From a virus, in IMG/VR virus record IMGVR_UViG_3300010400_000001, positions 72,227 through 136,226 of that record: a DNA stretch of 64,000 nt; one strand, written 5' to 3'. Each line of letters opens with the position of its first letter. Position 1 is the first letter of the stretch. Under the pieces are notes generated by a model, which was given only the letters and a program-made list of their open reading frames with translations, did not search any database and was not told where the DNA came from. A program made the translations under genes and the position numbers. This document shows, one piece after another, positions 52,997-54,786 of this stretch.

Positions 52997-54786
52997 CGGT
53001 GCGCCAGGAGACCTGGAAACTCGCTGCGTTGGGGCTCGATTTGCGAGCGGTTCGGATCGTCGGCTCCGAACAAGGCCGTATCCAGGCCGAATTGCCTAGA
53101 TCCTAGATGGGCGTCACCAGACTGCTCGAAAGGAACTTCGTGATAGGCGTCGATTGGTCGCACTGAGTGCGACGCTCCGGAAACCCGATTGCCGGGGCCT
53201 GGGGCGCTTGTTACGTCGCCATGCGGGGCCGTGACAGAGGATTTCTCCTCCGCCCGTGCCGTCCGCTTCCGCCGGCCGTTATCCCCTTTCGGGGGTTTCA
53301 AACCCGCGCTCCGCGGGCCTGCTGCTGGGTCGCCCGAAGGCGCCCGGTAGTTCAATAGATTGATCGCCGAATTGTCGTCGCGATCTTCCTGATACCCGCA
53401 CGTCGGGCACATGAACGTCGGATAGCCGGCGTTCGTGTCGCGCACGGCATTACAGGCCGAGCATCGGTTCGTCGTCGGCTCCTCTATCGGAACGAGCTCG
53501 AGGCGACCGCCGGCCCACGCCTGCTTGTACTCGAGCCGTCGCCTGAGATCTCCCATGCGAGCGGCGTGAACATTTTTGGCAAGTCGGTTTCGAGTGCGCG
53601 CGGCGTCTCCGCGCTTTCCGGCGCGCGAGAGCATCTTCGCAATGCCGGGTCCTCGCATCCGGACGGTCTCGGCGCCCATGTCGGCGATCTGACGAGCGGC
53701 CTTGCCGCAGACGTCGTCGCGAAGGGATTTGATGCGCGCGTGGTAATGAGCGACTCGCATGGCCGCTTCTTTCCAGCCCTGGCTTTGGTCGCGGGTTTTC
53801 ACCCCGTCCTTCCATCGGCGAGCCATCCGCCGTTCCCACCGCTTGCGAAGCATCTCGAACTTGTCGATGCGCCGGTCGTCCCGAAGTGGCGAGTGCCACA
53901 CGTGCCCCGCGCGCTCGCCGGTGGAAGCAACGGCAAGAACACGGACTCCGACTTCTACGCCGAGCTCCCTGCCGGGGACTCGCTTGGTCTGGTGCATCGC
54001 GAGAGCACGCCCGGGACCGCGCTTTTGCGGAAAGGGGCGAGGGACTTCGCATCGAAGTGCGACGTACCAGCGGCCGTCCTTCTCGGATACGCCGAGCCCG
54101 CATGCTTTGCCACCGCCGATGAAGCGATGAGAGTTTTCCTCGGTGACCGGAAGGTAGCCGCGTTCCTTCATTCTCACCCAGCCGACGCCAGGGATTTTGA
54201 CTGCGCGCTCCGTCACTCGAATCGGATCGGGTTGGTCACTGTGATAGCTCGCGCGCTGCCGCCCGCGAAACCGCGGCGGTCCGGCGCTCGCGTAGCGGCC
54301 GGCCTTGAGGTGCTCGAAGAAGTGCTTCCAGCCGTCCGCGACGTCGAGCACGGCTTCGCGGATGGCGAATGCAGAGAGCTCAGAGAGCCAGCCAAAGCGC
54401 TCGGGTTGCTCTTCCTTGGCGGAGACGAGCTGCGAGTACCAGTCGACTCGACCAGCGCGGAAGTCAGGAAGCTGTACGCCCGAGGCAGGGCGATAGCGGT
54501 AGCGCGAGCCCGCCTCTGATTTCGGCGTACGCACCTTCACGGGCTCGCCGCGAATGAGAGCTGCAAGGCAGTAGCCGAAGAGAGCCGCAGCCTCCCCGCC
54601 TTTGGCGTCGATGCCCGCGAGCGCCCGGCAGCCGAGCGCGACCCCGCGGGTCCCGTCGAGCTCTTTCCATTTTTCCAAGGCCCAGTTGTGGGCCACTCGC
54701 GCGCCGGCGACATGTCGCGCGAGCACGACCCGCTGCTCGTCAGTCGGATCGAGCTCGGTCTTGTAGGCGCGGAGAATGGTGGTCAT
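52978..54786 (-). CDS. TnpB/Cas12-like RNA-guided protein with inactivated RuvC
   Basis: TnpB-type N-terminus RAYKTELDPTDEQ...ARVAHNWAL, PPRFR, VKIPGVGWV and RWYVAL. RuvC-I reads GVEVG (D>E), RuvC-II VRMRGPG (E>R) and RuvC-III DRDDNSAINL, with a Zn finger CSAC...CPTCG. Confidence 0.9.
   Translation of the reverse strand: MTTILRAYKTELDPTDEQRVVLARHVAGARVAHNWALEKWKELDGTRGVALGCRALAGIDAKGGEAAALFGYCLAALIRGEPVKVRTPKSEAGSRYRYRPASGVQLPDFRAGRVDWYSQLVSAKEEQPERFGWLSELSAFAIREAVLDVADGWKHFFEHLKAGRYASAGPPRFRGRQRASYHSDQPDPIRVTERAVKIPGVGWVRMKERGYLPVTEENSHRFIGGGKACGLGVSEKDGRWYVALRCEVPRPFPQKRGPGRALAMHQTKRVPGRELGVEVGVRVLAVASTGERAGHVWHSPLRDDRRIDKFEMLRKRWERRMARRWKDGVKTRDQSQGWKEAAMRVAHYHARIKSLRDDVCGKAARQIADMGAETVRMRGPGIAKMLSRAGKRGDAARTRNRLAKNVHAARMGDLRRRLEYKQAWAGGRLELVPIEEPTTNRCSACNAVRDTNAGYPTFMCPTCGYQEDRDDNSAINLLNYRAPSGDPAAGPRSAGLKPPKGDNGRRKRTARAEEKSSVTAPHGDVTSAPGPGNRVSGASHSVRPIDAYHEVPFEQSGDAHLGSRQFGLDTALFGADDPNRSQIEPQRSEFPGLLAHRAGGTS
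53000..53340 (-). ncRNA. Candidate tracrRNA/omegaRNA-like scaffold with anti-repeat
   Basis: 53132-53156 is 19/25 identical to the repeat in inverted orientation. There is a second 9-nt match at 53203-53211 and hairpins at 53157-53173 and 53050-53071. Confidence 0.5.

What the first reader, a model, noticed from the sequence alone, without database searches (positions are those of the whole stretch)
52997..53340. Anti-repeat and hairpins hidden in the 3' tail of the effector ORF: possible omegaRNA-to-tracrRNA/crRNA split intermediate
Seen: after RuvC-III the ORF runs about 120 low-complexity codons and stops inside the first repeat (TGA at 52978-52980). In this tail, + strand 53132-53156 (GGAACTTCGTGATAGGCGTCGATTG) matches the minus-strand repeat (GGCACCTCGTGACGGGCGGCGCTTG) at 19/25, so the minus-strand transcript could pair with the crRNA repeat. 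An adjacent hairpin GTCGCAC-TGA-GTGCGAC (53157-53173), a second match GGCGCTTGT (53203-53211) and a GTTCGGA/TCCGAAC stem (53050-53071) are also present. Established: TnpB omegaRNAs overlap the 3' end of the tnpB ORF, and type V systems are thought to have arisen by splitting this RNA. Inference: this locus preserves that intermediate architecture.
Basis: partly seen in the sequence, partly recalled or inferred. Interest (0 to 1): 0.8.

Follow-up and report, generated by a model that had tools for sequence, protein, structure and literature searches.

The report
Guide-RNA scaffold inside phage TnpB-like gene
A soil phage carries a small TnpB-derived, CRISPR-associated protein whose disordered tail is really the DNA for its guide-RNA scaffold, including a stretch that pairs with the CRISPR repeat; this layout is already known from Cas12n, but here it sits in a rare phage lineage with an altered cutting site.

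Summary
ORF 52978-54786 (-) is a 602-aa TnpB-family protein in a complete 136-kb phage genome. Its last ~120 codons are predicted disordered, and its TGA lies inside the first repeat of a 13-copy array. A ~35-nt anti-repeat (53126-53160) pairs with the 36-nt repeat. Seven independent homologous loci have different repeats, and each has a matching anti-repeat 121-208 nt upstream of its first repeat. Only 2 of 5040 permutations pair as well as the cognate assignment, and 10 of 12 aligned pairs change on both sides. The second short match is not conserved. The tail lacks codon periodicity yet stays open in every locus, so it is constrained as RNA. This architecture, a tracrRNA inside the ORF's disordered tail, is published for Cas12n, and the omegaRNA split for TranC, so the concept is not new. 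Three things differ here. The clade is rare and found mostly on long, phage-sized contigs. The canonical RuvC-II Glu is an invariant Arg, and RuvC-I is usually Glu. Some spacers nearly match the phage's own genome.

The parts
53338..54786 (-). Folded core of the effector (aa 1-483), a TnpB-family RNA-guided protein. The positions equivalent to RuvC-I/II/III are E278, R378 and D468.
   Evidence: NCBIfam guided_TnpB 1.4e-45 over aa 8-479 and IS607_TnpB 2.6e-36; Pfam HTH_OrfB_IS605, OrfB_IS605 and Cas12f1-like_TNB. The AF2 core has pLDDT mostly 70-90. Foldseek top hits are ISFba1 TnpB 1.3e-20 and ISDra2 TnpB 2.9e-18.
52978..53337 (-). ORF tail (aa 484-602 plus the TGA stop). It is translated as a disordered peptide, and the DNA encodes the guide-RNA scaffold.
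   Evidence: pLDDT is below 50 (about 28) and no secondary structure is predicted for aa 484-602. Codon-position identity is flat in the tail (.43/.45/.39) against .61/.63/.40 in the core, and there is no GC3 excess. Over 7 loci the last 120 codons hold 0 stops in frame, against 18 and 17 in the other two frames. Nucleotide blocks are invariant across loci whose proteins are only 32-56% identical.
53174..53337 (-). 5' part of the scaffold: several stem-loops upstream of the anti-repeat.
   Evidence: RNAalifold helices in A3 columns 143-191 and 235-247 carry compensatory changes. The single-sequence fold has z -2.75, with 0 of 100 shuffles as stable. The 5' end of the RNA is not known.
53157..53173 (-). 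Hairpin immediately 5' of the anti-repeat (7-bp stem, 3-nt loop).
   Evidence: A 7-bp, 3-nt-loop hairpin with a different stem sequence occurs in WIN, L003/L005 and L006. Longer hairpins occupy the same place in L002, L007, L013 and L015.
53126..53160 (-). Anti-repeat, about 35 nt, which pairs with nearly the whole 36-nt repeat.
   Evidence: Cognate duplex energy is -34.1 kcal/mol. The matching segment lies 121-208 nt upstream of the first repeat in 7 of 7 independent loci. In the permutation test 2 of 5040 permutations were as low. Of 12 aligned pairs, 10 change on both sides; 87.5% of cells pair against 68.2% when shuffled, 0 of 500. The single-sequence MFE pairs 25 of the 36 repeat positions with it.
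53124..53128 (-). CGAGC, the 5' strand of an invariant helix that closes the linker domain.
   Evidence: RNAalifold pairs it with GCUCG. The pairs are unchanged in all 8 sequences, so the helix is predicted but has no covariation support.
53050..53071 (-). Hairpin in the linker domain, with a covarying stem and a conserved 8-9-nt loop.
   Evidence: A 6-7-bp stem of differing sequence closes the same loop in 5 of 7 loci (WIN, L002, L003, L006, L007). L013 and L015 have a different hairpin there.
53039..53049 (-). Invariant block (CGCUCGCAAA on the RNA). It holds the 3' strand of the closing helix (53044-53048).
   Evidence: Invariant columns in all 8 aligned loci, third codon positions included.
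52961..52996 (-). First repeat. It is contiguous with the scaffold and contains the ORF's TGA (52978-52980).
   Evidence: The stop is a TGA inside the first repeat in 7 of 8 tail-bearing loci. In L015 it ends 3 nt before the repeat.
52173..52996 (-). CRISPR-type array. It has 13 repeat copies: 10 regularly spaced (62-77 nt) with 9 spacers of 26-41 nt, and 3 degenerate copies without spacers at the distal end.
   Evidence: Repeats degenerate away from the effector, so the leader end lies next to the ORF. A 97%-identical variant in run X2 has a single 39-nt spacer in place of the three leader-proximal spacers.
52640..52677 (-). Spacer 5, which nearly matches the phage's own genome.
   Evidence: 35 of 38 positions match G000:C1 near 13357-13394, with mismatches at spacer positions 16, 36 and 38. 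The target lies in an ORF with a weak PHROG hit to dual-specificity phosphatase (6.6e-4). The X2 variant's spacer carries the base that removes the position-16 mismatch.
53203..53211 (-). Probably incidental.
   Evidence: Present in the sequence and used in the single-sequence MFE. It lies in an alignment segment absent from L002, L003, L005 and L006.

Best explanation
This is a self-contained, phage-borne type V-like CRISPR module derived from a TnpB of the IS607-like kind. It has three parts: the effector core (aa 1-483), a roughly 345-nt structured guide-RNA scaffold, and an array.

The scaffold DNA is the same DNA that the ORF reads through as a disordered 120-residue tail. From 5' to 3' the scaffold holds several stems, a hairpin, a ~35-nt anti-repeat, a conserved ~125-nt linker domain, and then the first repeat.

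Shown here: the anti-repeat and the repeat co-evolve, the tail is constrained as RNA rather than as protein, and the reading frame is nevertheless kept open up to a TGA in the first repeat.

Inferred: the whole region is transcribed in the effector's sense. In cis, the anti-repeat pairs with repeat 1, giving an omegaRNA-like single guide that carries spacer 1. In trans, scaffold molecules pair with the repeats of later units, as a tracrRNA pairs with a crRNA. The protein binds this RNA and is directed to DNA matching the spacer.

I commit, with less certainty (about 0.55), to binding without canonical cleavage. The canonical RuvC-II Glu is an invariant Arg and RuvC-I is usually Glu. The most likely biological role is conflict with closely related phages, because spacers nearly match the carriers' own conserved genes.
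For: Effector identity. The record is a phage genome with direct terminal repeats, 100% complete, and the gene is single-copy.

Arrays directly 3' of the ORF on the same strand occur in WIN, L002, L003, L005, L006, L007, L013 and L015.

Anti-repeat, 7 of 7 independent loci: cognate duplexes of -33 to -50 kcal/mol at 121-208 nt upstream. The cognate sum is -282.9 against a permutation mean of -223.8, and 2 of 5040 permutations are as low. Three control tail segments show no such preference (3692, 3102 and 934 of 5040).

On an alignment not fitted to structure, 87.5% of cells pair against 68.2% when shuffled (0 of 500). Ten of 12 pairs change on both sides, and slid registers pair only 20-53%. 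All 7 single-sequence MFEs pair 24-31 of the 36 repeat positions with the anti-repeat. Eight of 88 cells are G-U pairs, which would be A-C mismatches on the other strand; this favours the sense strand.

RNA-level constraint.

Natural variants: in L009 the effector has no tail, and the anti-repeat lies 140-171 nt before an array 1 kb downstream. L010 has no tail and no array within 4 kb on either side.

RuvC: the Glu column is Arg in 22 of 22 sequences (A1) and in 17 of 17 clade representatives, while 9 of 9 nearest outgroup TnpBs have Glu. The same column assignment follows from the alignments to ISFba1 TnpB and RdCas12n.

Array turnover at the leader end: X2 against the window, and L003 against L005, which share trailer spacers.

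Spacers that match the carrier's own genome: window 1 of 9 spacers; G001 2 of 14 (33/36 and 35/36).
Against: No RNA data exist, so the transcript ends, the processing, and even the existence of a separate tracrRNA are unknown. For this window alone the pairing is the weakest of the seven.

The invariant closing helix has no covariation. RNAalifold on the linker alone found little.

The non-cutting claim rests on sequence columns only. Conserved replacements can mark rearranged but active sites (PMC10691335 section 8). One clade-specific acidic residue, E340 (15 of 17 against 2 of 9 in the outgroup), lies in the RuvC region. RuvC-III Asp is kept.

No Cas1 or Cas2 is present in the phage, so how spacers are gained is unexplained. 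No common PAM emerges from the three self-protospacers.
Confidence: 0.75

Rival explanations
1. The architecture is the same, but the effector is an active nuclease with a rearranged catalytic site. It cuts rival phage DNA, and the carrier's own genome is protected by mismatches or by the lack of a PAM.
For: RuvC-III Asp and the surrounding RuvC motifs are conserved, and RuvC-I is Glu or Asp in 16 of 17 representatives. A clade-specific Glu (E340, 15 of 17) lies in the helix after RuvC-I. Published TnpB groups that lost the RuvC-II Glu are predicted to compensate with another Glu. In G001 the mismatches to its own genome fall at spacer positions 2, 4 and 7 and at position 7, which is seed-like.
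Against: Arg at the Glu position is invariant, and no clade-invariant substitute acidic residue was found. The window's spacer 5 mismatches its own genome only at positions 16, 36 and 38. In variant X2 the position-16 mismatch is gone, which would be dangerous for a cutter unless the PAM is missing.
Confidence: 0.35
2. The anti-repeat to repeat-1 helix acts only in cis. It would be a processing or regulatory element, for example a double-strand RNase site that separates the mRNA from the pre-crRNA, or a structure that couples translation to array expression. The effector would use crRNA alone.
For: Covariation proves the pairing, not its use. The helix is contiguous with repeat 1, and the stop codon sits inside it. 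The frame is kept open up to that point.
Against: About 345 nt of flanking sequence is conserved at the nucleotide level with further covarying hairpins, which is far more than a cleavage site needs. In L009 the same module stands apart from the ORF. The nearest characterised relatives, TnpB and Cas12n, need a long scaffold RNA.
Confidence: 0.1
3. The tail is a genuine protein domain, and its complementarity to the repeat is incidental or a relic.
For: The frame is open in every locus. Weak peptide motifs align across 22 proteins.
Against: The tail is predicted disordered, has flat codon-position conservation and no GC3 excess. The complementarity changes in step with the repeat in 7 loci. Tail-less relatives exist.
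Confidence: 0.03

Closest known systems
Cas12n (type V-U4 / V-N, c2c9)
   Same: A small TnpB-like effector with the array directly downstream. It has a disordered, dispensable C-terminal tail whose coding DNA holds the tracrRNA. It has no Cas1 or Cas2. I read passages in PMC12216341, section 6 of bioRxiv 10.64898/2026.03.27.714800 and PMC11641405. The original Chen et al. 2023 paper was not read.
   Different: Cas12n has the canonical Asp-Glu-Asp site and cuts DNA. In this clade, Arg aligns with RdCas12n's Glu. The profile scores lower against RdCas12n (91 bits) than against ISFba1 TnpB (132) or ISDra2 TnpB (118). As described, the Cas12n tracrRNA was taken from the anti-repeat nearest the end of the low-confidence tail. 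Here a conserved 125-nt domain follows the anti-repeat, and the ORF runs into the first repeat.
TnpB with omegaRNA (ISDra2, ISFba1, IS607-type)
   Same: These are the best sequence and fold matches. The guide-RNA scaffold overlaps the 3' end of the ORF and ends at the guide. The first unit here has exactly that form.
   Different: There is no transposase nearby and the gene is single-copy in the genome. An array of repeat-spacer units follows in place of a single guide. The RuvC-II Glu is lost.
TranC (transposon-CRISPR intermediates, e.g. LaTranC)
   Same: TnpB-like effectors with arrays, whose omegaRNA is functionally split into tracrRNA and crRNA. I saw this only as described by citing papers and in PDB titles.
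   Different: The LaTranC chains match only the RuvC/TNB part, at E about 1e-10. The preprint notes that its TranC clades lack a Cas12n-like unstructured tail. I could not check the published clade lists, because the paper is not in the library and supplements are closed.
Non-cutting RNA-guided binders derived from TnpB/Cas12 (Cas12m, Cas12k, TldR, V-U groups with altered sites)
   Same: They have an altered RuvC triad with the fold retained. They tolerate spacers that match the carrier. PMC10691335 lists V-U24, V-U43 and V-U44 as having altered catalytic sites.
   Different: Function was not tested here. The match to Cas12m chains covers only the zinc ribbon (E 5.8e-5). Whether this clade is one of the listed V-U groups cannot be told without the supplements.
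Virus-borne mini-CRISPR arrays used in conflicts between related viruses
   Same: Phage-encoded arrays without adaptation genes, carrying spacers nearly identical to the carriers' own conserved genes. The concept is recalled from the literature, and the paper appears in the reference list seen.
   Different: Those arrays typically depend on host effectors. This module brings its own effector and scaffold.

Membership tests
Type V CRISPR-Cas with tracrRNA (Cas12n-like architecture) | A RuvC/TnpB-fold effector with a CRISPR array next to it, downstream and on the same strand | tested here: met
   The same arrangement occurs in 7 further loci.
Type V CRISPR-Cas with tracrRNA (Cas12n-like architecture) | An anti-repeat complementary to the repeat, conserved through compensatory change | tested here: met
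   2 of 5040 permutations; 10 of 12 pairs change on both sides.
Type V CRISPR-Cas with tracrRNA (Cas12n-like architecture) | The tracrRNA region overlaps the part of the ORF that encodes a disordered C-terminal tail | tested here: met
Cas12n proper | A canonical RuvC Asp-Glu-Asp site and DNA cleavage | tested here: not met
   The site is E278/R378/D468. Arg is found in 17 of 17 clade representatives. Cleavage itself cannot be tested with these tools.
Cas12n proper | Sequence membership in the Cas12n clade | tested here: inconclusive
   The profile against RdCas12n gives E 7.4e-25, which is weaker than against two TnpBs. No tree including Cas12n sequences was built.
Cas12n proper | A-rich 5' PAM | not testable with these tools
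   Only three near-self protospacers were found, and their flanks are G/C-rich with no shared motif.
TnpB-omegaRNA transposon (IS200/IS605, IS607) | The protein matches the TnpB family models | tested here: met
   guided_TnpB scores 156 bits against a cut-off of 100. The IS607_TnpB and IS200_TnpB models score below their own cut-offs.
TnpB-omegaRNA transposon (IS200/IS605, IS607) | An associated transposase, transposon ends, and mobility (several copies) | tested here: not met
   There is one copy in the genome. The upstream ORF has no family match and is not conserved beside the homologues.
TranC | Membership in a published TranC clade; use of both crRNA and omegaRNA-type guides | not testable with these tools
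   The paper is not in the library. LaTranC chains match at only about 1e-10.
Adaptive CRISPR locus | An adaptation module (Cas1, Cas2) | tested here: not met
   No match in the complete phage genome, while the controls responded.
Adaptive CRISPR locus | Spacer turnover at the leader end between close relatives | tested here: met
   Variant X2 has one 39-nt spacer in place of the three leader-proximal spacers and shares the older units. L003 and L005 share trailer spacers only.

The most novel reading that the evidence does not exclude
A rare, phage-borne clade of TnpB-derived effectors has swapped its RuvC-II Glu for Arg and works as a programmable DNA binder rather than a cutter. It would be guided by an omegaRNA-like scaffold with an internal anti-repeat plus an array. 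It would silence genes of near-identical rival phages and, through tolerated near-self spacers, perhaps the phage's own genes. Keeping the frame open across the scaffold up to a stop codon embedded in the first repeat would be functional in itself. Ribosome transit through the scaffold would couple effector translation to guide-RNA folding, or protect the long transcript until the array is reached.
Probability: 0.2. Interest if true: 0.75.

Novelty: new variant of a known kind. Interest (0 to 1): 0.5.

Why it matters
The locus and its relatives form a natural series for studying how a single omegaRNA became a tracrRNA plus crRNAs. The series runs from scaffold fused to the ORF and to repeat 1 (eight loci), to scaffold and array detached from a tail-less effector (L009), to an effector with neither tail nor nearby array (L010).

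It extends the Cas12n-type overlap of protein-coding and RNA-coding DNA to a separate lineage found on phage genomes and other long contigs. It also shows that the frame is kept open without protein-type constraint, which nothing I read here explains.

The invariant Arg at the RuvC-II position marks a compact (about 480 aa folded) candidate for a natural non-cutting, RNA-guided DNA binder. Spacers that nearly match the carriers' own genes point to phage-against-phage use.

Tried and rejected
1. A hairpin built into every spacer was my own impression. Spacer folding is no better than shuffles: mean z is -0.35 for the window and -0.35 to +0.87 for the seven other arrays. Rejected.

2. An unrestricted RNAduplex of the repeat against the 450 nt upstream gave no signal for the window (165 of 200 shuffles as low), L003 (82 of 200) or L005 (54 of 200). 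Long internal loops in G+C-rich sequence swamp it. I replaced it with position-restricted and permutation tests.

3. Rfam gave 0 matches in 50000-58000 at E up to 1.

4. The promoter and terminator scan of 52100-55100 gave 0 promoter-like sites and 1 terminator-like site on the + strand, fewer than in shuffles. It says nothing about RNA ends.

5. RNA evidence: no RNA holder listed.

6. GenBank phages gave no match to the locus or to the array. The viral-contig scan with the single protein found nothing.

7. The upstream ORF (54783-55940) was tested as a conserved partner. It has no family match and no homologue beside the effector in the other loci.

9. RNAalifold on the linker alone found 12 pairs and little covariation. 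Per-sequence folds were used instead.

10. The protein atlas returned only TnpB clusters.

11. Identity with the phage Cas12m of preprint 10.64898/2026.09.14.751636 was rejected. That protein's reported catalytic residues are spaced differently, and Cas12m chains match here only in the zinc ribbon.

12. A PAM could not be derived from the self-protospacers, which share no motif.

13. The nine Streptomyces TnpB loci (25-29% identity) were not analysed further. Of the 28 metagenome loci, I used the seven with a full-length relative and downstream DNA (L003, L005, L006, L007, L010, L013, L015), plus L009. I left out the short or distant ones.

14. Earlier findings of this scan were not open.

15. 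No model coordinates were available, so distances in the predicted active site could not be measured.
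Full report
**What is at the coordinates**

The window is the right-hand 64 kb of a 136,226-bp virus record with direct terminal repeats, rated 100% complete. The effector gene occurs once in it. ORF 52978..54786 on the minus strand encodes 602 aa. It matches NCBIfam guided_TnpB (1.4e-45, aa 8-479) and IS607_TnpB (2.6e-36). 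It also matches the Pfam models HTH_OrfB_IS605, OrfB_IS605 and Cas12f1-like_TNB.

Directly 3' of the ORF on the same strand lie 13 copies of a 36-nt repeat (52173-52996). Ten are regularly spaced with 9 spacers of 26-41 nt. Three degenerate copies without spacers sit at the far end. The ORF's TGA (52978-52980) is inside the first repeat.

**Is the anti-repeat more than chance?**

In the window alone the evidence is modest. The 19/25 match is reached by 2 of 1000 dinucleotide shuffles, and the 36-nt pairing by 16-21 of 1000. An unrestricted duplex search was no better than shuffles.

Relatives settle the question. The protein has about 30 homologues of 580-634 aa, many on long, phage-sized contigs. 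All 22 that I aligned carry the tail and end at the same aligned position.

DNA was obtained for seven further tail-bearing loci: L002, L003, L005, L006, L007, L013 and L015 (32-56% protein identity). L003 and L005 are near-identical to each other. Every one has an array immediately after the ORF, with 36-nt repeats of clearly different sequence. In 7 of the 8 tail-bearing loci, counting the window, the stop is a TGA inside the first repeat. In L015 it ends 3 nt before the repeat.

In all 7 independent lineages a segment 121-208 nt upstream of the first repeat pairs with nearly the whole cognate repeat, at -33 to -50 kcal/mol. I then took a fixed 100-nt window (-215 to -116) and the second repeat of each array. 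The cognate assignment sums to -282.9 kcal/mol against a mean of -223.8 for permutations. Only 2 of 5040 permutations are as low. Three control segments of the tail show no cognate preference (3692, 3102 and 934 of 5040).

The MAFFT alignment was not fitted to any structure, and RNAalifold found the helix in it by itself. For 12 pairs of that helix, 87.5% of cells pair against 68.2% when shuffled (0 of 500). Ten pairs change on both sides, and slid registers give 20-53%. Each of the seven single-sequence minimum-energy folds pairs 24-31 of the 36 repeat positions with the anti-repeat.

**The rest of the tail**

The hairpin at 53157-53173 and the stem at 53050-53071 recur with different stem sequences. 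The second keeps a conserved loop in 5 of 7 loci. The second 9-nt match (53203-53211) lies in a segment missing from 4 of 8 loci and is probably incidental.

Between the anti-repeat and the first repeat lies a ~125-nt domain. Its nucleotide blocks are invariant even between loci whose proteins are about one-third identical. They include an invariant predicted helix (53124-53128 with 53044-53048), which has no covariation to support it.

The tail behaves as RNA, not as protein:
- Pairwise identity by codon position is .61/.63/.40 in the core but .43/.45/.39 in the tail.
- The third-position G+C excess of the core is absent from the tail.
- AlphaFold2 gives pLDDT of about 28 and no secondary structure for aa 484-602.

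Yet the frame is kept open. Over the seven loci the last 120 codons hold 0 stops in frame, against 18 and 17 in the other two frames. The chance of no stop is 0.02-0.12 per locus.

Two natural variants help. L009 has a tail-less effector with the array 1 kb downstream, and an anti-repeat lies 140-171 nt before its first repeat. L010 (58% identical) has neither a tail nor an array within 4 kb on either side.

**The effector's catalytic site**

Three separate alignments place the canonical RuvC-II Glu on an Arg (R378): to ordinary TnpBs, to ISFba1 TnpB, and to RdCas12n. The Arg is invariant in 22 of 22 family sequences and in 17 of 17 clade representatives from an exhaustive profile search. Nine of 9 of the nearest outgroup TnpBs have Glu.

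RuvC-I is Glu in 12, Asp in 4 and Ser in 1 of the 17 representatives. RuvC-III Asp is kept in 16 of 17. The only clade-specific acidic residue in the RuvC region is E340 (15 of 17).

Published work shows that such replacements can mean either inactivation or a rearranged active site (PMC10691335 section 8). I could not measure distances in the model. I lean to a non-cutting binder, but only at about 0.55.

**Evidence that the array is in use**

The phage has no Cas1 or Cas2. A variant about 97% identical in a landfill metagenome run (X2) shares the older units. It has one different 39-nt spacer where the window has its three leader-proximal spacers. L003 and L005 likewise share only trailer spacers.

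In that same contig, the 61 differences over 52961-54816 include only five listed ones within 52961-53340. The list is cut, so this is only a hint that the tail is more conserved than the core.

One of the window's 9 spacers (52640-52677) matches the phage's own genome at 35 of 38 positions. The target lies in an ORF with a weak phosphatase-like match. In X2 the one internal mismatch is absent. The homologous gene of phage G001 matches at 31 of 38.

In G001, a complete 140-kb relative, 2 of 14 spacers match its own genome at 33/36 and 35/36, with the mismatches near the 5' end. This pattern fits spacers taken from close relatives. It is also compatible with tolerated self-binding. No shared PAM is visible.

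**Comparison with what is known**

The layout is published for Cas12n (type V-U4). [quoted passage not shown] Section 6 of bioRxiv 10.64898/2026.03.27.714800 calls the tail dispensable and uses it to locate the tracrRNA. PMC11641405 says the tracrRNA lies inside the Cas12n mRNA.

The splitting of the omegaRNA into tracrRNA and crRNA is credited to the TranC paper, which I saw only through citations. PMC10691335 describes 40 V-U groups, some with altered catalytic sites. This clade may be among them. That paper's supplements and the TranC paper itself could not be seen.

This family is not demonstrably Cas12n. Its profile scores higher against two TnpBs than against RdCas12n, and it lacks the canonical Glu. 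It is rare: about 17-19 clusters at 50% identity among 1.84 billion representatives score above 300 bits, before ordinary 400-aa TnpBs take over.

**Verdict**

The idea it points to is already in print.

What this locus adds:
- a separate, rare lineage, two members of which lie in complete phage genomes
- an invariant Arg at the RuvC-II position
- an internal anti-repeat followed by a conserved linker domain
- a frame kept open into the first repeat
- spacers that nearly match the carriers' own genes

No RNA data were available, so transcript ends and the cis or trans use of the scaffold remain inferred.

Noticed in passing
window 52640-52677; target at G000:C1 about 13357-13394 (L040 about 3357-3394): One array spacer matches the phage's own genome at 35 of 38 positions. 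The target lies in an ORF with a CX5R-type motif (by eye) and a weak PHROG hit to dual-specificity phosphatase. The near-identical variant in run X2 lacks the internal mismatch.
   Followed up: partly
G001 (record of L002): spacers L002 6271-6306 and 6634-6669; targets near G001:C1 53445-53480 and 70471-70506: Two of 14 spacers of the related complete phage match its own genome at 33/36 and 35/36. The mismatches fall at spacer positions 2, 4 and 7, and at position 7.
   Followed up: partly
window about 42347-42859 (genome 114573-115085), and genome 46167-54243 outside the window: These stretches have a 9-nt periodicity of the CCNACNGGN kind, as in collagen-like Gly-X-Y coding repeats. They are weakly hit by the L002 spacer 6634-6669. 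I did not annotate the genes.
   Followed up: no
L007 1-370: A second array of at least 6 copies of the same repeat lies about 2 kb upstream of the L007 effector, on the same strand and at the contig end. This is in addition to the 3 copies downstream.
   Followed up: no
L005 5857-5964 and 6147-6254: A 108-nt block (repeat, spacer, repeat) is duplicated exactly within the L005 array. This shows that arrays also change by internal duplication.
   Followed up: no
L009 6222-6596: A 38%-identical effector without a tail has its array and anti-repeat about 1 kb downstream of the ORF. The RNA module can therefore stand apart from the gene.
   Followed up: partly
window 54783-55940 (-): The ORF upstream of the effector overlaps its start codon by 4 nt (ATGA). 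It matches no Pfam, NCBIfam or PHROG family and is not found beside the effector in the other loci.
   Followed up: partly
window 48992-49990 (-): An FkbM-type methyltransferase (Pfam 2.8e-16) lies 2 kb beyond the array. A 46%-identical homologue lies upstream of the effector in L002.
   Followed up: no
P0001 residue 340 (window about 53767-53769): A Glu conserved in 15 of 17 clade members, but in only 2 of 9 outgroup TnpBs, sits in the long helix after RuvC-I. It is a candidate substitute catalytic residue if the site is rearranged rather than dead.
   Followed up: no
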